UHGV virus genome: UHGV-0254580
Source of the DNA: a virus
Reading direction: 5' to 3' (one strand)
Length of the DNA: 13,064 nucleotides
Part shown: piece after piece, positions 6,360 through 11,806 of the stretch
Layout: each line of letters begins with the position of its first letter
How positions within the stretch are numbered: position 1 is the stretch's first letter
Position numbers and translations under genes: made by a program
The notes under the pieces: model-generated
Seen by the model: only the letters and a program-made list of their open reading frames with translations
Databases searched by the model: none
Told to the model about the DNA's origin: nothing

Positions 6360-8240
6360 TTAATACTCCGTCACGTTTTCCTGTCGCCACGCCTCGTCAT
6401 ATTCCGATTTCGGCATATTGGCGATGTAGCTATATGGCGATCCTGATTCAAGTTGCAGGAACTGGTGCGATTGCTCGTCAAGGAACAACGGGACACCACC
6501 TTCCCAACCTTCGCCGTTACGTTGTTTTTCAAGCATCAAAACAGATGCCGGAGATGCCAGTAGCTGTTCGTCCTTCTCTGACATCTTTTCACCACTCTGA
6601 ACTCTCTGTAACGCTCTCTCGCGAGCCTTGTTACGCCAGATGATGAAAAGGTTGTCTGTCAGGTCTGTTATCGCTCCAGAGCCTTTTACGTCCATTTTCC
6701 CGGTTGGTTTTTCTTCGCTGTCACCTTTTCGCGAGTGAGTAACGAGAATGACGTGGGAGTTTGTTTTGTTTTTGAAATCGCAAATCGAGTCAACAAACGC
6801 CTTCTGCCCGTTATAGTCATCGTCGCCTATGCCACATTTCATCAGGCTGTCGATGATGAATAACTGGATGCCGTATCGGCGGCGAGCGTAGTCGAATATT
6901 TCGATCAGCCTGTCGGCTTTCGCCGTTCCGGTCAGGCCAAACACCCAAAGTCTTTCGTCATAAAATTTAAATGCAGAGTCAATTTCCAGCACTGGCGGCA
7001 TCTTGCAGCACGTCGCCTGACGGGTAAGTCGCTTAAGGAGAATGCCTGGCTTCAGCTCAAGTGACGCGATGCACGTCTTCACACCCTGACGCATTGCCTC
7101 AAGTGCCATATGCCCGACAACCTCCGTTTTTCCGTGACCGTTCACACCATTGACCAGCGTCAACTCTGCCTCACGAAACTGGAATTTATCTGCCAGAGAT
7201 TCCCACGGTGGATTAAACAGATACTGCTGCTTGCCGTAGAAAGCGTTGATAGTGTCCTGGTAAAACTCTCGCGCGCTGTAGAGTTCTTCAGGATCGAAGT
7301 AGGATGCCGTGCCAATGTACTGCCAGATTTCATCCTCGGTAACACCGTTCATCAGGCATTCGTTGATGTCTTTGTACGGCAGAGTAACAAGACGGCAACG
7401 ATGTTCACCGAGTCGACTTGCGATTTCCCTTGCGGCTTCACGACCAACATCATCAACGTCCATCGAGATGAATATTTCCTCAAACCTGTCGAGGTTGTGA
7501 TACTCAAACTCAATCCACTGCTGCTTAGCGCCTTTCCCGCCACCAAACGGCACGGATAACGCCGAGATGCCGTATTGCGCATAGCTCATACAATCAATTT
7601 CGCCTTCGCAAAGTACAACCGCCCTCACGCCAGCGTCCAGAGCCTGCCATCCGAACAGACAAGGTTCGCAATCACCTTCTGCCATAATGACTTTCTTCCC
7701 GTCCGGGCGCTCAGTGCTGATTCGCTTGACCTGCAACAACTCACCATCGCGTTTGTACGGAATCACCAGAGCATCCAGTTCCCGCTCTCCATTCCACACC
7801 TTGCCGCTGACAACCTCGTAGCGCTTTACGATTTCTGGCGATATGCCACGCGATTGCAGGTACTCAAGATGGGATTCTGTTCTGGTAACGTAGCGGGCGA
7901 TTTTCTTGCGATCAGGTCTGGAGAATTTCTTCTCACGTTTGGCATCGAAATGGTGATCGTCATCCTTGATACCGAGAAATGCTTTCGCTTCCTGCATAGC
8001 CTGATGCAGATTAATTCCACGACATGACATCCACAAATCAAGCATGTCACCGCCGTCTCCCTCAGCGAAATCAGCCCATTTTTTCTTGCCGCTAAGGTTG
8101 ACCTTAAGGCTGTTTCCCTTGTCACCGTTGACGTTACCGGCAACCCACTCATGCCCCTCTTTCTTGCCGTTTGGCAACAGGTGCGGAGCCACCCTGTCAA
8201 CCTGCGCCCAAAGCAGGTCGCTAAGTTCACTTGGTGTCAT
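6360..8240 (-). CDS. Bifunctional replicative DNA primase/helicase (Toprim primase domain + RecA-fold SF4-like helicase)
   Basis: 626 aa. Toprim-like acidic motifs (VVLCEGEIDCMSY; ISMDVDDVGREAA) in the middle; C-terminal Walker A GVNGHGKTEV and Walker B-like LFIIDSLMKC. Occupies the position of lambda P, downstream of the O-like gene. Confidence 0.8.
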   Translation of the reverse strand: MTPSELSDLLWAQVDRVAPHLLPNGKKEGHEWVAGNVNGDKGNSLKVNLSGKKKWADFAEGDGGDMLDLWMSCRGINLHQAMQEAKAFLGIKDDDHHFDAKREKKFSRPDRKKIARYVTRTESHLEYLQSRGISPEIVKRYEVVSGKVWNGERELDALVIPYKRDGELLQVKRISTERPDGKKVIMAEGDCEPCLFGWQALDAGVRAVVLCEGEIDCMSYAQYGISALSVPFGGGKGAKQQWIEFEYHNLDRFEEIFISMDVDDVGREAAREIASRLGEHRCRLVTLPYKDINECLMNGVTEDEIWQYIGTASYFDPEELYSAREFYQDTINAFYGKQQYLFNPPWESLADKFQFREAELTLVNGVNGHGKTEVVGHMALEAMRQGVKTCIASLELKPGILLKRLTRQATCCKMPPVLEIDSAFKFYDERLWVFGLTGTAKADRLIEIFDYARRRYGIQLFIIDSLMKCGIGDDDYNGQKAFVDSICDFKNKTNSHVILVTHSRKGDSEEKPTGKMDVKGSGAITDLTDNLFIIWRNKARERALQRVQSGEKMSEKDEQLLASPASVLMLEKQRNGEGWEGGVPLFLDEQSHQFLQLESGSPYSYIANMPKSEYDEAWRQENVTEY

Positions 8241-8344
8241 GATTCCCTCAGATTGAGATTTTTAAACCAGAAATCGACAAACGAAATACTTAACCAGCCG
8301 TGGTTATAACCAGCGACCAGTAGCGATTTGATTTTTGATTTCAT
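8237..8344 (-). CDS. Possible 35-aa coupled ORF filling the O / primase-helicase intergenic gap
   Basis: ATG 3 nt after the O stop, preceded by AGGTGA; translation MKSKIKSLLVAGYNHGWLSISFVDFWFKNLNLRES; its TGA overlaps the primase-helicase ATG (ATGA). Short SD spacing; unverified. Confidence 0.3.
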   Translation of the reverse strand: MKSKIKSLLVAGYNHGWLSISFVDFWFKNLNLRES

Positions 8345-8347
8345 GGT

Positions 8348-9208
8348 TCACCTGTCGAAAAACACGTAGCCAGTTTTCGATACGGTGATTGCGGATGATG
8401 GTTTGGATTGTGGTTGAATGGTTTCTGGCTTTTCGTCGTTCCAGCGCTGACCGTTCAGGTAGCTCGATGGTAACAACCTGTCGAATCCGAACTGCTTACC
8501 ATTCCTGCATGCGATGTCTTCTGCCAGCATCGTGGCAAACTCGCTTGCTGTACCCCTTGTAGTTTTACGCCATTCCCTGAACTGTGTTCTGAATGCCGAA
8601 GCCGCGTTTTTCTTCCCGGCTTTCCGCATGCCTGCACACCAGAATATTTCCTCGAATGCCTTGTCGGTTTCTTCGTGACGGTCAGATGATTTTTCACACT
8701 CCGTCCGAACACTTTCGGACATAGTGTTTTTATTATTTCTTTTTTCTTTTGTAATAGTTTCTTTTGTGTGTCCCTGTTTTGGTGACAGCGCTGTCACCGT
8801 TTTGGTGACACTTTTTGTCACCAATGCAGTGACATTATCACCAGAGTAGTGACACCCTTCGATTTGCCATTCTTCGATGTTCTTGTTAGGCCCAATTTGC
8901 TGGCCTTCGCGAAGGATAACCTTCATCGCGATAAGCTCATTCTTGGCCTTGTTTACCTTCTGTCTTGGCAGCCTGGTAATTTGAGCTAACTGACTATCAG
9001 AGATGCGATCCATCTTTTTACCGTAGCCGTATGTTTTACGGCATATGGCGTGGGCAACCTTGCTCTGATTTTTCGTTAAATCTGCGCCGATAAGCTCTTC
9101 ATACAGGGCATTTGCAAGACGGGTATAACCATCTTCAACTTCTGCCACACGACGCTCCACAGGCCGTTGTGAAGGCCTTAAATGTGTTACGGTTGCAAGA
9201 TTACTCAT
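8348..9208 (-). CDS. O: Replication initiator, lambda O-like N-terminal origin-binding domain with divergent C-terminal domain
   Basis: N-terminal region [56 protein letters not shown]...GPNKNIEEW parallels recalled lambda O (DGYARLSNMLLEAYSGADLTKRQFKVLLAILRKTYGWNKPMDRITDSQLSEITKLP...GPNKNISEW). Iterons lie inside the gene, as for lambda ori. Confidence 0.85.
8720..8856. repeat. Putative origin of replication: iteron array (GTGACA/TGTCAC-based, about 23-bp period) plus adjacent AT-rich tract inside the O-like gene
   Basis: 18-bp perfect palindrome GGTGACAGCGCTGTCACC (8781-8798), GGTGACACTTTTTGTCACC (8804-8822), then GTGACATTATCACC and AGTGACAC; immediately adjacent AT-rich tract 8720-8765. 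Confidence 0.6.
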
Positions 9209-9347
9209 GACCTTTCTCCTTCTGCATCAGCTTCACTTTTTCCAACTCAGCCCGGAATCGACCAGGCTGCTTGAAGCTGGACAGGAAGCGATCACGTAGT
9301 ATGTGTTTGTGAATTTTGTCCTGGTAAGGACTGAGTTGTTTTGTCAT
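9201..9347 (-). CDS. Possible 48-aa basic protein between cII and O (translationally coupled to O)
   Basis: Not in the ORF track. AGGAG 7 nt upstream of the ATG; translation [48 protein letters not shown]; its TAA lies within the first codons of O (ATGAGTAA). Confidence 0.4.
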
Positions 9348-9356
9348 AATGACTCC

Positions 9357-9425
9357 TGTGGATTGATCCAGTCTTTCTACATCAGGCCTCGAAGAATTCG
9401 CCGTTCTTCGGGGCTTTTTCTTTTG
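9357..9425 (+). ncRNA. Candidate oop-like antisense RNA with intrinsic terminator overlapping the cII 3' end
   Basis: Plus-strand hairpin CGAAGAA-TTCGCCG-TTCTTCG followed by GGGCTTTTTCTTTT at about 9399-9432, antisense to the cII C-terminus; a CATAAT -10-like hexamer at 9345-9350. Positional analogue of lambda oop; extent approximate. Confidence 0.35.
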
Positions 9426-9663
9426 TCAGGTAATTGGCAAGCCGCTTAGTCAGCTCAGCCATTTCATCGTCTTCGATTCCGTATTCCAGAACAGCCAGCA
9501 TCATGCTTACCTGCGAGAAGAAACCATTCTTCCATCGGCTTACCTGATATTCAGGAACCCCCATTGCTCGAGCGAATGTCTTCTGCCCCATCAGTGCCAG
9601 TTTGTTCAGCAAGGCTGACTCGATGCGAGCCGCTTTCTTGCTTTTAGTTGCAATAGTACTCAT
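9382..9663 (-). CDS. cII: cII-like transcriptional activator
   Basis: 93-aa protein ...[64 protein letters not shown]... parallels recalled lambda cII (...[60 protein letters not shown]...). Confidence 0.85.
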
Positions 9664-9739
9664 AGATAATTTCCTTAATGATTAGATAGAGTTGGCTTCG
9701 CAAAGAAACGCAAAACCATAGAGATTTGTTTCTGGTAAT

Positions 9740-9771
9740 GCCCTTTTTCAGGGCGGGGATGTGTAAGAGCG
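9740..9771 (-). promoter_or_regulatory. nutR-like N-utilisation site (boxA CGCTCTTAC... and boxB GCCCTGAAAAAGGGC hairpin)
   Basis: Minus strand reads CGCTCTTACACATCCCCGCCCTGAAAAAGGGC between cro and cII; the boxB stem-loop GCCCT-GAAAAA-GGGC matches the lambda nutR type. Confidence 0.7.
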
Positions 9772-9779
9772 TTAATAAC

Positions 9780-10010
9780 TTAAGCGGCCATTAATTCAGG
9801 CCAGATGCTTTCCCAATCAACCGGATGAAGGTCTTTGCGAGTCACTTCACCATTGCTGAACTTCTCAATCAGAACACAAAGTGCTGCGCCCAATTCATGA
9901 TTACGGCTAAGTGCTTTCCTCAAATAGCCGATAGAAGTTCCGCACTTGGTGGCAAATTCTCTCTGCTCTTCCAGTGAAAGGGAGTTCAGATACAAGCGGA
10001 GTTCTTCCAT
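9780..10010 (-). CDS. cro: Cro-like HTH repressor (76 aa), first gene of the rightward early operon
   Basis: Divergent from cI across the operator region; RBS GGAAGGAG upstream of the ATG; HTH-like segment QREFATKCGTSIGYLRKAL. Assignment is positional plus HTH. Confidence 0.65.
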   Translation of the reverse strand: MEELRLYLNSLSLEEQREFATKCGTSIGYLRKALSRNHELGAALCVLIEKFSNGEVTRKDLHPVDWESIWPELMAA

Positions 10011-10118
10011 TTGCTATCTCCTTCCCGTTGTTGAATAAGATGAGTTTACCTGTAGGTAAAAATCAAATAAATACCCATAGGTTATTTACCGGCAGGTAAT
10101 CAAAGATAGAATTAAATC
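10011..10118. promoter_or_regulatory. OR-like divergent control region (PR/PRM) with three TACCnnnnGGTA-type operators
   Basis: Operator cores TACCTGTAGGTA (10047-10058), TACCCATAGGTT (10072-10083, imperfect) and TACCGGCAGGTA (10087-10098). Candidate PRM -10 TAGAAT (10107-10112) ends about 6 nt before the cI ATG with no SD, suggesting a leaderless cI mRNA as in lambda. Confidence 0.7.
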
Positions 10119-10805
10119 ATGGATAAATACGAACAAAGACGACTAAGGCTGATAGAGATAAGAGACCGATTCTGTAATGGAAAGGCCTCAGAGTTGGCTC
10201 GTCGAATAGAAAGGGAACCATCATACGTTTCCAGAATGCTGTATCCGGAAGGAAAAAGCGGAAAAAAACGCATTGCTGACGATATGATGGAACTAATTGA
10301 AAAATCTTTTAATCTCCCACGCGGATGGATGGACATGCTTGCAGATGGTAAAGCTGGAGCTACAGACCATCTTGAGTTTGCGGGTAACGTTCGTGCGGGT
10401 TTTGTTCCGGTAATTGGTGAAGCCGTTTTGGGAGTTGATGGCTCAGTGGATATGATTGAATTCAGATCCGGTTGGTTAAGCATCTACAGCGGCGATAACG
10501 ATGCTTACGGTCTGAAGGTTAAGGGTGACAGCATGTGGCCAAGGATTCAGTCAGGAGAATATGTTGTTATTGAACCAAATACGCCAGTACATCCAGGTGA
10601 TGAAGTCTTTGTAAGGACCAAAGACGGTCACAACATGATAAAGATCATGAACAAAACAAGAGACGGTGATTATCAGTTTAGTAGCATAAACAGTGATCAC
10701 CGCCCAATCACTCTTCCTGTTGAAGAAGTTGATAAAATGCATTTTGTTTCAGCTATTGTGAAACACACCAGGTACGTAGACCAGGACGATCTGCCAAAAG
10801 TTTGA
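10119..10805 (+). CDS. cI: cI repressor (N-terminal HTH, C-terminal LexA/S24-peptidase autocleavage domain)
   Basis: 228-aa protein with HTH-like ELARRIEREPSYVSRML and C-terminal S24 features (GDSMWP Ser motif, downstream Lys); divergent from cro across palindromic operators. Not lambda cI by sequence. Confidence 0.9.
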   Translation: MDKYEQRRLRLIEIRDRFCNGKASELARRIEREPSYVSRMLYPEGKSGKKRIADDMMELIEKSFNLPRGWMDMLADGKAGATDHLEFAGNVRAGFVPVIGEAVLGVDGSVDMIEFRSGWLSIYSGDNDAYGLKVKGDSMWPRIQSGEYVVIEPNTPVHPGDEVFVRTKDGHNMIKIMNKTRDGDYQFSSINSDHRPITLPVEEVDKMHFVSAIVKHTRYVDQDDLPKV

Positions 10806-10819
10806 GGATAAAGCAGCAA

Positions 10820-11116
10820 GTGTTTATACCCGGCATAGTAGTCGCTGTTGTAATCATCTGCTTCATATGGGCAAAGTTATCTCCTGTAAGCTCTAAGCAT
10901 ACAGCTGAACTCATGAAGAAGAAGCATCTTATACATGAGGCAGAATCGATAATTAAAAAGTTCAAAGGCATGTCATACGACGACATGTCATCAGAGCAGA
11001 TTGCTATGTATAAATGCGCCATTGAGCGTCTTGACTACTTAAACGGACTCAAACCCAAACACACCCCAGTAGAATCAAAATTGCCGCAATGGCCAAGCAA
11101 TCCAAATAGCTTCTGA
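10820..11116 (+). CDS. Small membrane-anchored protein co-transcribed with cI (rex-position accessory gene); alternative TTG start at 10802
   Basis: Track ORF 10802..11116 starts at a TTG overlapping the cI stop; a GTG at 10820 has GAGGA about 11 nt upstream. N-terminal TM helix (FIPGIVVAVVIICFIWAKL) then a charged soluble domain; followed by a terminator. Confidence 0.6.
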   Translation: MFIPGIVVAVVIICFIWAKLSPVSSKHTAELMKKKHLIHEAESIIKKFKGMSYDDMSSEQIAMYKCAIERLDYLNGLKPKHTPVESKLPQWPSNPNSF

Positions 11117-11127
11117 CATCTCCTTTC

Positions 11128-11150
11128 AGCCCGCAAAGCGGGCTTTTTTA
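11128..11150 (+). terminator. Intrinsic terminator ending the cI operon
   Basis: AGCCCGC-AAA-GCGGGCT followed by TTTTTTA, 11 bp after the stop of the membrane-protein ORF. Confidence 0.65.
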
Positions 11151-11168
11151 TATCAATCCAAAAAATTA

Positions 11169-11253
11169 ATTACCTGAAAATTCAAGCAGGTAAACTCTTA
11201 CATCAATTTTATTTACCTGCAGGTATAGACAACTGTTTTACCTGTAGGTATAT
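11169..11253 (+). promoter_or_regulatory. OL/PL-like region: operators (TACCTGCAGGTA and TACCTGTAGGTA) overlapping a leftward-type promoter driving N
   Basis: Perfect palindrome TACCTGCAGGTA (11213-11224) and TACCTGTAGGTA (11238-11249), 25 bp apart; split palindrome TTACCTG-N10-CAGGTAA (11169-11192). Candidate -35 TAGACA (11225-11230), 17-bp spacer, -10 TATATT (11248-11253). Confidence 0.7.
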
Positions 11254-11295
11254 TTTAGGCCATCAGCAGGACGCACTGACCACCATGAAGGTGAT

Positions 11296-11326
11296 GCTCT
11301 TAAAAATTAAGCCCTGAAGAAGGGCA
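11296..11326 (+). promoter_or_regulatory. nutL-like site (boxA TGCTCTTAA, boxB GCCCTGAAGAAGGGC)
   Basis: Reads GATGCTCTTAAAAATTAAGCCCTGAAGAAGGGC between PL and N; boxB hairpin GCCCT-GAAGAA-GGGC as recalled for lambda nutL. Confidence 0.75.
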
Positions 11327-11482
11327 GCATTCAAAGCAGAAGGCTTTGGTGTGTGTGATACGAAACGAAGCATTGGCCGGAAGTGCGAATCCGGATTAGC
11401 TGTCAATGTGCCATTGCTGGGTGTTTTCGTTCAGGACTACGACTCCCACACACAACCAAAGCTAACTGACAGGAGAATCCAG

Positions 11483-11806
11483 ATGGATGCACAAACACGC
11501 CGCCGCGAACGTCGCGCAGAGAAACAGGCTCAATGGAAAGCAGCAAATCCCCTGTTGGTTGGGGTAAGCGCAAAACCAGTTAACCGCCCTATTCTCTCGC
11601 TGAATCGCAAACCGAAATCACGAGTAGAAAGCGCACTAAATCCGATAGACCTTACAGTGCTGGCTGAATACCACAAACAGATTGAAAGCAACCTGCAACG
11701 TATTGAGCGCAAGAATCAGCGCACATGGTACAGCAAGCCTGGCGAACGCGGCATAACATGCAGTGGACGCCAGAAAATTAAGGGAAAATCGATTCCTCTT
11801 ACTTAG
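11483..11806 (+). CDS. N: Antitermination protein N (lambda-type)
   Basis: 107-aa product MDAQTRRRERRAEKQAQWKAANPLLVGVSAKPVNRPILSLNRKPKSRVESALNPIDLTVLAEYHKQIESNLQRIERKNQRTWYSKPGERGITCSGRQKIKGKSIPLT from the internal ATG of track ORF 11351..11806, preceded by AGGAGA; matches recalled lambda N including the Arg-rich boxB-binding N-terminus. Confidence 0.9.
   Translation: MDAQTRRRERRAEKQAQWKAANPLLVGVSAKPVNRPILSLNRKPKSRVESALNPIDLTVLAEYHKQIESNLQRIERKNQRTWYSKPGERGITCSGRQKIKGKSIPLT

What the first reader, a model, noticed from the sequence alone, without database searches (positions are those of the whole stretch)
10011..10118. Tripartite OR with TACCnnnnGGTA operator cores and probable leaderless cI
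Three 12-bp sites with a shared TACC...GGTA inverted-repeat core lie between cro and cI. The site nearest cI sits between the candidate PRM -35 and -10. The cI ATG is 6-7 nt downstream of a TAGAAT -10 with no Shine-Dalgarno, mirroring the leaderless cI mRNA from lambda PRM. The operator consensus would define the immunity specificity.
Basis: partly seen in the sequence, partly recalled or inferred. Interest (0 to 1): 0.45.

Follow-up and report, generated by a model that had tools for sequence, protein, structure and literature searches.

The report
Lambda-type phage repressor switch region
This is the on/off control region of a lambda-like prophage (phage mEp043 type), with three repressor-binding sites between the repressor and cro genes and a repressor gene that very probably starts right at its mRNA's first base; it is a real but ordinary kind of switch whose binding-site sequence had not been written down.

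Summary
The 108-bp cro–cI gap (10011-10118) has two exact TACCNNNNGGTA sites and one with a single mismatch. Two more exact sites flank the PL promoter 1.1 kb away. The window holds four exact sites where shuffles predict 0.04, and the whole 42.9-kb mEp043 genome has no others.

The window is 99.4% identical to phage mEp043 in the immunity region compared (9700-10900). Across 58 distinct relatives, from Escherichia to Paraburkholderia and Stenotrophomonas, the three sites sit at fixed positions (-72/-73, -47/-48, -32/-33 from the ATG). They travel with the repressor's N-terminal helix-turn-helix domain and a Cro homologue, while the repressor's C-terminal domain is swapped.

The geometry copies lambda:
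- OR2 is centred at -41.5 from the cI ATG (lambda: -42).
- OR3 shares its left half with the PRM -35 hexamer.
- A -10 hexamer ends 6-7 nt before an ATG in 55 of 58 relatives.
- There is no Shine-Dalgarno pairing (-0.9 kcal/mol, against -6 to -9 for neighbouring genes).

Repressor binding and the mRNA 5' end remain inferred. I rate it a new member of a known kind, of modest interest. One conserved split half-site repeat upstream of OL is unexplained.

The parts
10047..10058 (.). OR1, TACCTGTAGGTA (extended TTTACCTGTAGGTAAA, 10045-10060). It covers the spacer and the first two bases of the PR -10, and is centred at -16.5 from the predicted PR start.
   Evidence: Exact match. At -72/-73 from the ATG in nearly all of the 58 distinct relatives, with an invariant TACC/GGTA core and a Y-R-Y-R centre.
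10072..10083 (.). OR2, TACCCATAGGTT, an imperfect site. It is centred at -41.5 from the cI ATG and -41.5 from the predicted PR start, and abuts both -35 hexamers.
   Evidence: One-mismatch hit. The imperfection is conserved: position +11 is T or C in 52 of 58 relatives and position -1 is A in 58 of 58. Lambda OR2 is centred at -42.
10087..10098 (.). OR3, TACCGGCAGGTA (extended TTTACCGGCAGGTAAT). Its left half is the PRM -35 hexamer. It is centred at -26.5 from the cI ATG and 15 bp from the OR2 centre.
   Evidence: Exact match. Fixed at -32/-33 in relatives; ATTTACC is invariant; position +4 is a purine in 55 of 58, unlike OR1 and OR2.
10085..10112 (+). Candidate PRM: -35 TTTACC (10085-10090), 16-bp spacer, -10 TAGAAT (10107-10112).
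   Evidence: The only plus-strand promoter-like site in the gap. A -10 of form TAnnnT ends 6 or 7 nt before the ATG in 55 of 58 relatives, with a constant 16-bp spacer.
10119..10805 (+). cI repressor, 228 aa. The N-terminal helix-turn-helix spans about residues 1-70 and the C-terminal S24 self-cleaving domain follows. The ATG at 10119 is the predicted first base of the PRM transcript.
   Evidence: Pfam Peptidase_S24, E 1.4e-17. AlphaFold2 pLDDT 87 with an alignment. Foldseek finds Xre-type HTH proteins, best hit 5d50 Rep. In-frame TAA at 10113-10115. No Shine-Dalgarno pairing.
10043..10071 (-). Candidate PR: -35 at 10071..10066 (TTTATT here, TTGATT in mEp043 and EC1515), 17-bp spacer, -10 TAAACT at 10048..10043. 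The predicted start is near 10036, 26 nt before the cro ATG.
   Evidence: The family consensus puts AATCAA (that is, TTGATT) directly against OR2 and keeps TAAnnT overlapping OR1. PL has the same layout. The simple consensus scan did not detect it in the window.
9780..10010 (-). cro, 76 aa, with a GGAG Shine-Dalgarno.
   Evidence: PDB Cro 8co2/8c7k, E 2e-10. PHROG 35, transcriptional repressor. A homologue (45-100% identity) is found in 22 of the 23 related loci tabulated.
11214..11225 (.). OL2, TACCTGCAGGTA, directly upstream of the PL -35.
   Evidence: Exact match. Paired with OL1 at 25-26 bp in 72 of 73 distinct OL regions.
11239..11250 (.). OL1, TACCTGTAGGTA, overlapping the PL -10.
   Evidence: Exact match; family conservation.
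11226..11254 (+). PL: -35 TAGACA, 17-bp spacer, -10 TATATT. It drives nutL (boxB 11311-11325) and N.
   Evidence: Best promoter match in the region, 10 of 12. Annotated as putative PL in JQ182734. N carries the N36 domain.
11170..11193 (.). Split inverted repeat TTACCTG-N10-CAGGTAA: two operator half-sites set one extra helical turn apart. It may be a third OL element or a PL2-like promoter. Function unresolved.
   Evidence: Present in 42 of 73 distinct OL regions, always exactly 44 bp upstream of the OL2 core, with conserved interior and flanks.
9638..9670 (+). Candidate PRE: the cII site TTGCTTTTAGTTGC (9638-9651) inside cII, and a -10 GATAAT (9665-9670). It would give a long-leader cI transcript antisense to cro.
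   Evidence: Sequence. The same site is annotated as a putative cII binding site in JQ182734. The cII gene is identified by Pfam, E 6.8e-30.

Best explanation
The 108-bp gap is the right operator (OR) of a lambda-type genetic switch belonging to the mEp043 immunity group.

**The sites (inferred function).** The repressor dimer, and very probably Cro, recognise a 14-16 bp palindrome, TTTACC-YRYR-GGTAAA, through an N-terminal Xre/lambda-like helix-turn-helix.

**Repression of the lytic promoters (inferred).**
- OR1 overlaps the PR -10 and OR2 abuts the PR -35, so occupying them shuts off cro and the replication genes.
- The same two-site design at OL shuts off PL and N.

**Self-control of the repressor (inferred).**
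- OR2 is centred at -41.5 from the cI start and 7.5 bp from the PRM -35. This is the lambda position for contacting sigma region 4, so it should activate the weak PRM promoter (TTTACC, 16 bp, TAGAAT).
- OR3 shares its left half with the PRM -35, so filling it should turn PRM off.
- Each site carries its own conserved deviation: OR2 has weak flanks and OR3 has a purine at +4. This looks like a hard-wired order of occupancy.

**The leaderless message (inferred).** The PRM transcript should begin at, or one base before, the A of the cI ATG and so be translated without a Shine-Dalgarno, as in lambda. During establishment of lysogeny, cII-dependent PRE (9638-9670) supplies a second, long-leader cI transcript.

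**What is shown and what is not.** Shown here: the sequences, their enrichment, their positional conservation, the gene identities and the geometry. Not shown: binding, activation, auto-repression and the mRNA 5' end.
For: - **Enrichment.** Four exact sites against 0.04 expected, all in OR or OL. None elsewhere in the 42.9-kb mEp043 genome. In 4-kb related loci exact sites occur almost only at OR and OL.
- **Independent phage.** CharmingMan has a repressor N-terminal domain 80.6% identical over 72 aa, with an unrelated C-terminal domain and different flanks. It shows the same layout: 25 + 15 bp site spacing, TAGAAT 8 bp after OR3, and two OL sites.
- **Family footprint.** In 58 distinct OR regions from at least nine genera the sites sit at fixed offsets. 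The half-sites are invariant while the centres vary, and ATTTACC and TAnnAT are conserved.
- **Module inheritance.** The operators travel with the N-terminal domain and Cro. The C-terminal domain is of at least three kinds. H-19B and 933W share the C-terminal domain (66.7%) but have other operators and no Cro homologue.
- **Protein fold.** The N-terminal domain folds as an HTH (pLDDT 87; Foldseek hits to Rep 5d50, C.Esp1396I, ClgR and the 434 repressor).
- **Leaderless design.** The -10 ends 6 nt before the ATG in 11 relatives and 7 nt in 44, out of 58. There are 29 different linker sequences. The start codon is ATG in all 58. Anti-SD pairing is -0.9 kcal/mol for cI, against -6 to -9 for cro, cII, O and N.
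- **Lambda measured directly.** TAGATT, 6 nt, ATG; OR2 centre at -42.
Against: - There are no binding, footprint or transcript-mapping data for this immunity group. I found no paper holding these operator sequences, and the GenBank records annotate no operators.
- PR in this window fails the simple consensus scan. Its -35 carries a substitution seen in none of the other 57 relatives.
- OR2 and OR3 centres are only 15 bp apart, much closer than lambda's 23 bp. Joint occupancy and cooperativity are therefore uncertain.
- By half-site match alone OR3 looks as good as OR1, unlike lambda, so the order of filling is a guess.
- The related 933W repressor, which shares the C-terminal domain type, is reported not to bind OR1 and OR2 cooperatively (PMC5977221).
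- The six substitutions between the window and mEp043 in OR and OL all miss the half-sites, but that is expected by chance about 30% of the time (my arithmetic).
Confidence: 0.82

Rival explanations
1. The sites are operators as described, but cI is not leaderless. The maintenance transcript would start further upstream or come from another promoter, and be translated through an A/U-rich, S1-dependent leader without a Shine-Dalgarno.
For: The region upstream of the ATG is A/T-rich. PRE must give a leadered cI message that is translated despite having no Shine-Dalgarno. In some relatives an in-frame ATG overlaps the -10 (TAAAATG, TAGAATG), and it is the annotated start in CharmingMan.
Against: The only plus-strand promoter-like site in the gap is TTTACC-16-TAGAAT. 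The -10 keeps a 6-7 nt distance to the ATG in 55 of 58 relatives while the linker sequence varies freely. All starts are ATG. The MDKYE N-terminus is conserved from that ATG. The window has an in-frame stop just upstream. Lambda has the identical geometry.
Confidence: 0.15
2. OR2 and OR3 cannot be filled together because their centres are only 15 bp apart. The switch would then work by competition: repressor at OR1+OR2 would keep OR3 empty and PRM on, or Cro or repressor at OR3 would displace OR2. It would not use lambda-style independent auto-repression at high repressor levels.
For: The 15-bp spacing, with only 3 bp between the cores, is invariant across the family. The two facing halves are the deviant ones: OR2 GGTT and OR3 TACC-purine.
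Against: Fifteen base pairs puts two dimers on nearly opposite faces of the helix. From general knowledge, that arrangement allows joint binding at the overlapping LexA boxes of colicin promoters. Nothing here tests occupancy.
Confidence: 0.2
3. The repeats are not protein-binding sites. They would be by-products of overlapping promoter hexamers (TTTACC as a -35, GGTAAA/GGTATA as a -10) reused in PR, PRM and PL.
For: Each half-site does double as part of a promoter element: TTTACC is the PRM -35, and GGTA+AACT and GGTA+TATT are the PR and PL -10s.
Against: Both halves are conserved as a palindrome with fixed 4-bp centres even where no promoter element overlaps, for example the left half of OR1, both halves of OL2 and the right half of OR3. 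The motif tracks one particular DNA-binding domain across unrelated flanks.
Confidence: 0.03

Closest known systems
Bacteriophage lambda OR/PRM/PR switch with leaderless cI mRNA
   Same: Divergent cI and cro around three operators. OR1 and OR2 lie over PR. OR2 is centred at -41.5 (lambda -42) and 7.5 bp (lambda 7) from the first base of the PRM -35. The third site blocks PRM. The -10 (TAGAAT here, TAGATT in lambda) is followed by 6 nt and then the ATG, with no Shine-Dalgarno. cII/PRE, an N protein with the N36 domain and lambda-type nutL/nutR boxB hairpins are all present.
   Different: The operator is a 12-16 bp TTTACC-N4-GGTAAA palindrome, not a 17-bp TATCACCGC-type site. OR2-OR3 spacing is 15 bp rather than 23. 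OR3 overlaps the -35 rather than the spacer and -10. OL has two canonical sites rather than three. The repressor's N-terminal domain gives no Pfam hit, and lambda repressor does not appear among the PDB sequence matches.
Shiga-toxin phages 933W and H-19B (CI repressors)
   Same: The C-terminal S24 domain is 66.7% identical (49-50% over the whole protein). The overall lambdoid layout is the same. 933W also has three OR sites and lacks an OL3 (PMC5977221).
   Different: The N-terminal domain is only 21-27% identical (H-19B) or undetectable (933W type). The operators differ: TTTAYC..GATAAA-like in H-19B and unrelated annotated sites in phi24B. There is no Cro homologue. They form a different immunity group.
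Phage 434 operators (ACAA-N6-TTGT)
   Same: A short palindrome with conserved outer half-sites and a variable centre that differs systematically between sites. Here that is Y-R-Y-R in OR1 and OR2 against a purine-first centre in OR3. That the centre tunes affinity in 434 is recalled from the literature, not tested here.
   Different: Different sequence, a 4-bp rather than 6-bp centre, and an unrelated protein sequence. 434 repressor (1pra) is only a weak fold hit.
Shigella phage SfV cI / annotated putative operator region
   Same: The cI N-terminal domain is 39% identical. The operators share the TACC...GGTA half-sites (TGTACC-CTATC-GGTACA). The cI ATG lies close behind an A/T-rich -10-like stretch.
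   Different: The centre is 5 bp rather than 4, the flanks differ, and so does the site arrangement.
Rep repressor of Salmonella phage SPC32H (PDB 5d50)
   Same: It is the best structural match to the modelled N-terminal domain (Foldseek E 6e-4, TMq 0.76, 24-26% identity).
   Different: Rep is controlled by an antirepressor and is reported to bind DNA as a tetramer, with the paired DNA-binding domains coming from different dimers (PMC9638917). The window repressor has an S24 self-cleavage domain.

Membership tests
Lambda-type (lambdoid) CI/Cro immunity switch | Divergently transcribed repressor and cro genes separated by a short gap holding multiple copies of one palindromic operator | tested here: met
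   cro 9780-10010 (-) and cI 10119-10805 (+), with three sites in the 108-bp gap.
Lambda-type (lambdoid) CI/Cro immunity switch | Repressor with an N-terminal helix-turn-helix DNA-binding domain and a C-terminal LexA/S24 self-cleaving domain | tested here: met
   Pfam Peptidase_S24 over residues 104-204, E 1.4e-17. The N-terminal domain has no Pfam hit, but the AlphaFold2 model (pLDDT 87) matches Xre/lambda-like HTH structures.
Lambda-type (lambdoid) CI/Cro immunity switch | A second operator (OL) with the same sites over PL, upstream of N and nutL | tested here: met
   Two exact sites bracket TAGACA-17-TATATT. nutL boxB and the N gene follow. This is conserved in relatives.
Lambda-type (lambdoid) CI/Cro immunity switch | The middle operator is placed to activate PRM (about -42) and the cI-proximal operator overlaps PRM | tested here: met
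   OR2 centre at -41.5 and OR3 centre at -26.5, over the -35. Lambda measured at -42. Only the geometry was tested; activation itself was not.
Lambda-type (lambdoid) CI/Cro immunity switch | Repressor and Cro physically bind the sites, with differential affinity | not testable with these tools
   Only indirect support: the sites are co-inherited with the N-terminal domain and Cro, and each site carries its own conserved deviations.
Lambda-type (lambdoid) CI/Cro immunity switch | A third OL site supporting OL-OR looping | tested here: inconclusive
   There is no third canonical site. A conserved split repeat TTACCTG-N10-CAGGTAA lies 44 bp upstream of OL2 in 42 of 73 OL regions.
Leaderless cI mRNA of the lambda PRM type | The -10 hexamer ends 6-8 nt before the start codon, so transcription starts at or next to the A of the AUG | tested here: met
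   TAGAAT at 10107-10112 and ATG at 10119. The gap is 6 or 7 nt in 55 of 58 relatives. Lambda has TAGATT, 6 nt, ATG.
Leaderless cI mRNA of the lambda PRM type | No Shine-Dalgarno, and an AUG (not GUG or UUG) start codon | tested here: met
   Anti-SD duplex energy is -0.9 kcal/mol, against -6 to -9 for neighbouring genes. The start codon is ATG in all 58 relatives.
Leaderless cI mRNA of the lambda PRM type | Experimentally mapped 5' end at the A of the AUG | not testable with these tools
   No transcript data were available.
933W / H-19B immunity groups | Same DNA-binding domain, same operator sequence and a homologous Cro | tested here: not met
   N-terminal domain 21-27% identical or undetectable; no Cro hit; different operator sequences. 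Only the C-terminal domain is shared.

The most novel reading that the evidence does not exclude
The family may not run a plain lambda-style switch. Three observations leave this open:
- The invariant 15-bp OR2-OR3 spacing, with deviant facing halves.
- The two-site OL.
- The conserved element whose two operator half-sites lie one extra helical turn apart (11170-11193).

Together they could mean that the repressor binds as a higher-order assembly whose DNA-binding domains pair across dimers, as reported for the closest structural relative, SPC32H Rep. The split element would then be the OL anchor of a long-range OL-OR complex that sets PRM output.
Probability: 0.12. Interest if true: 0.55.

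Novelty: new member of a known kind. Interest (0 to 1): 0.3.

Why it matters
It gives a concrete operator sequence, promoter map and site hierarchy for an immunity group that has none on record. The group is found in about 1% of complete E. coli genomes (52 of 5,426) and in prophages from Pantoea, Atlantibacter, Paraburkholderia, Stenotrophomonas and others.

This allows homo-immunity to be predicted from sequence; for example, mEp043 and CharmingMan should cross-repress. It corrects likely misannotated repressor starts. It also offers a compact 12-16 bp operator and repressor pair for synthetic circuits. Finally, it adds a well-conserved example of a leaderless repressor gene beyond lambda.

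It does not change how we think such switches work.

Tried and rejected
- **Clear-plaque mutant.** I compared wild-type mEp043 with its c-1 mutant, hoping the mutation would fall in an operator. The two are identical across 9640-11345, so this was uninformative.
- **Window versus mEp043 substitutions.** The six differences in OR and OL all avoid the half-sites, but by my arithmetic that happens by chance about 30% of the time, so I do not count it as evidence.
- **Literature.** A full-text search for the operator sequences found only unrelated primer hits. An mEp043 search found no regulatory study. Searches for PDB codes 8C7K/8CO2 and 7NKV/8C3K/8C3L did not find their papers. Tyler et al. 2004 on the 933W operators is not held.
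- **Structure.** Single-sequence AlphaFold2 of the N-terminal domain was too weak to use (pLDDT 62). It was replaced by a run with an alignment.
- **Sequence-only domain searches.** Pfam and NCBIfam found nothing for the N-terminal domain. The PDB sequence-profile hit to 'phage repressor CI' 7nkv is marginal (E 0.016).
- **Alternative PR.** I first considered TTGATT (10066..10061), 18 bp, CATCTT as PR. I rejected it as the ancestral promoter because the family consensus places the -35 directly against OR2.
- **ORF 10802-11116 as binder of the split repeat.** Rejected, because relatives that have the repeat lack that ORF.
- **One failed script run** and one run with excessive output added nothing.

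Full report
**What the window is.** The immunity region compared, 9700-10900, is 99.4% identical to Escherichia phage mEp043. Identity across 6700-11358 is 98.6%. The same immunity region, at 80% or more coverage, is present in 52 of 5,426 complete E. coli genomes.

The gene content is classic lambdoid:
- minus strand: cro (9780-10010), cII (9382-9663, Pfam Phage_CII), O (8348-9208) and a primase-helicase (6360-8240);
- plus strand: cI (10119-10805, S24 peptidase C-terminus), a 104-aa ORF (10802-11116), a terminator (11128-11150), nutL boxB (11311-11325) and an N gene with the N36 domain;
- minus strand again: sieB.

The finding's coordinates, 10011-10118, are exactly the cro–cI gap.

**Checking the observation.** The three sites exist as described. 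They are TACCTGTAGGTA (10047-10058), TACCCATAGGTT (10072-10083, one mismatch) and TACCGGCAGGTA (10087-10098).

Exact TACCNNNNGGTA occurs four times in the window, against 0.04 expected; none of 200 shuffles reached that. The other two exact copies are at 11214-11225 and 11239-11250, and they bracket the best promoter match in the region, TAGACA-17-TATATT. That is PL, so these two sites form OL.

In the full 42.9-kb mEp043 genome these four are the only exact matches. The one-mismatch hits elsewhere are at the chance level.

**Comparative evidence.** Near-identical copies carry little information, so I looked for diverged relatives of the repressor's N-terminal domain.

Phage CharmingMan has a repressor that is 80.6% identical over the first 72 residues, but its C-terminal domain and flanks are unrelated. 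Its cro–repressor gap is 107 bp, against 108 bp here. It has three exact sites with the same 25 + 15 bp centre spacing, TAGAAT 8 bp after the third site, the conserved MDKY start 7 nt after that, and two sites bracketing its PL.

Scans of genome and viral collections gave 91 more loci from Escherichia, Pantoea, Atlantibacter, Dryocola, Izhakiella, Paraburkholderia, Stenotrophomonas and metagenomes. With the window and CharmingMan, they yield 58 distinct OR sequences:
- The sites sit at -72/-73, -47/-48 and -32/-33 from the ATG.
- TACC and GGTA are essentially invariant, while the central four bases vary.
- Exact sites occur almost nowhere else in the roughly 4-kb loci, apart from a pair 25-26 bp apart downstream of the repressor gene.

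A Cro homologue (45-100% identity) accompanies the N-terminal domain in 22 of the 23 related loci tabulated. The C-terminal domain, in contrast, is of at least three unrelated S24 types, or in one case a short non-S24 tail. Conversely, H-19B and 933W-type phages share this window's C-terminal domain (66.7%) but have other operators and no Cro homologue.

So the specificity module is the N-terminal domain, Cro, OR and OL together.

**The DNA-binding domain.** Pfam and NCBIfam do not recognise residues 1-100. A single-sequence model was poor. With a 41-sequence alignment, the AlphaFold2 model has pLDDT 87 (above 90 over residues 1-70) and four helices.

Foldseek places it among Xre/lambda-repressor-like helix-turn-helix proteins. 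The best hit is Rep of Salmonella phage SPC32H (5d50; E 6e-4, TMq 0.76), followed by C.Esp1396I, ClgR, HigA and the 434 repressor. The likely recognition helix, EREPSYVSRM, is almost invariant across the family. That fits the invariant half-sites.

**Promoter geometry.**

*PRM (plus strand).* The -35 is TTTACC (10085-10090), the spacer is 16 bp and the -10 is TAGAAT (10107-10112). It is the only plus-strand promoter-like site in the gap. Taking the A of the ATG (10119) as +1:
- OR2 is centred at -41.5, and its centre is 7.5 bp from the first base of the -35.
- OR3 is centred at -26.5, and its left half is the -35 hexamer itself.

I measured lambda on NC_001416 for comparison. It has TAGATT, 6 nt, ATG; OR2 centred at -42 and 7 bp from the -35; and OR3 in the spacer. 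OR2 is therefore in the lambda activating position and OR3 in a blocking position.

*PR (minus strand).* The family consensus puts TTGATT (AATCAA on the plus strand) directly against OR2. Seventeen base pairs further on, TAAnnT overlaps the end of OR1. In the window this reads TTTATT, 17 bp, TAAACT (10071..10043), with a predicted start near 10036. PL has the same layout.

**Leaderless cI.** Six bases separate TAGAAT from the ATG. An in-frame TAA at 10113-10115 excludes upstream starts, and homology to relatives begins before any downstream start.

Pairing with the anti-Shine-Dalgarno sequence is -0.9 kcal/mol for cI. It is -8.8 for cro and O, -7.4 for N and -6.1 for cII.

Across the family a -10 with A at position 2 and T at position 6 ends 6 nt (11 cases) or 7 nt (44 cases) before the ATG, out of 58. 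There are 29 different linker sequences, and the start codon is ATG in all 58. Conserved length with free sequence, and a strict ATG, are what a leaderless design predicts. This remains an inference until a 5' end is mapped.

The cII-dependent PRE, TTGCTTTTAGTTGC at 9638-9651 plus GATAAT at 9665-9670, is annotated in JQ182734. It will also produce a long-leader cI transcript, as in lambda.

**Differences from lambda.**
- The operators are short: a 12-bp core, or 16 bp with flanks.
- OR2 and OR3 centres are only 15 bp apart.
- OL has two canonical sites. The same is reported for 933W (PMC5977221).

Each OR site also has its own conserved signature:
- OR1 is consensus, with a Y-R-Y-R centre.
- OR2 has A at -1 (58 of 58) and T or C instead of A at +11 (52 of 58).
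- OR3 has a purine at +4 (55 of 58).

I read these as built-in affinity differences, but the order of filling cannot be derived from sequence alone.

**Unexplained element.** TTACCTG-N10-CAGGTAA (11170-11193) consists of two operator half-sites one extra helical turn apart. It occurs in 42 of 73 distinct OL regions, always exactly 44 bp upstream of the OL2 core. Its interior (..TCAA..) and flanks are also conserved.

The remaining OL group has 26-bp OL1-OL2 spacing and keeps only the left half. The element could be a weak third operator, a PL2-like promoter (ATTACC-16-TAAACT) or a host-factor site. I could not decide between these.

**Literature and novelty.** No held paper contains these operator sequences, and no regulatory study of mEp043 turned up. 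The three mEp043 GenBank records annotate cI, cro, a putative PL and a cII site, but no operators. The more distant SfV (39% N-terminal identity) has an annotated 'putative operator region' with TGTACC-N5-GGTACA sites.

**Verdict.** It is a new, apparently uncharacterised operator specificity within a thoroughly known kind of switch, so I file it as a new member of a known kind, with interest about 0.3.

Noticed in passing
window 11170-11193: Split inverted repeat TTACCTG-N10-CAGGTAA, made of two operator half-sites one extra helical turn apart. It lies between the cI-operon terminator and OL2. It is conserved in 42 of 73 distinct OL regions at exactly 44 bp from the OL2 core. Function unknown.
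   Followed up: partly
window 10069 (PR -35, 10071..10066): The window has A where mEp043, EC1515 and all the other 57 distinct family OR sequences have C. This changes the PR -35 from TTGATT to TTTATT. It may be a promoter-down change in this prophage. A second TTGATT lies 5 bp downstream (10066..10061).
   Followed up: yes
window 9638-9670: A lambda-style PRE: TTGC-N6-TTGC inside the start of cII, followed 13 nt later by GATAAT. It would give an antisense-cro, long-leader cI transcript.
   Followed up: partly
window 9700-9713 (minus strand): A second TTGC-N6-TTGC (TTGCGTTTCTTTGC) lies on the opposite strand, in the cro-cII gap downstream of nutR. Its significance is unknown.
   Followed up: no
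window 9741-9772 and 11311-11325: The nutR boxB (GCCCTGAAAAAGGGC) with boxA (CGCTCTTA), and the nutL boxB (GCCCTGAAGAAGGGC), match lambda's as I recall them. They go with an N protein carrying the N36 domain. So a lambda-type antitermination module is joined to a non-lambda immunity module.
   Followed up: partly
L006 2492-2503 (CharmingMan) and many relatives (e.g. L009, L010): An in-frame ATG overlapping the PRM -10 (TAGAATG, TAAAATG) is annotated as the repressor start in CharmingMan (MKAMDKY...). The conserved MDKY start three codons later is more likely, so the start is probably misannotated. The repressor is also labelled only 'hypothetical protein' there.
   Followed up: partly
related loci L008-L097; proteins P0003-P0054: The same N-terminal DNA-binding domain is fused to at least three unrelated S24 C-terminal domains. 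It also occurs with short non-S24 tails of about 135-145 aa, for example Paraburkholderia L016 (136 aa) and E. coli cluster P0013 (543 members). These may be non-SOS-inducible repressors.
   Followed up: partly
window 10802-11116: A 104-aa ORF of unknown function (PHROG 10450) overlaps the cI stop codon and is followed by the terminator. It occupies the position of lambda rexAB and is probably expressed in the lysogen together with cI.
   Followed up: no
window 6700 and 11358 onward, compared with mEp043: High identity to mEp043 runs from 6700, the edge of the mEp043 stretch I had fetched, to 11358. It breaks at 11358 in the nutL-N leader, resumes at 98% over 11446-11739, and then drops. Beyond that the window carries sieB, which the mEp043 annotation does not show at this position. 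The prophage is a mosaic that shares the immunity module.
   Followed up: no
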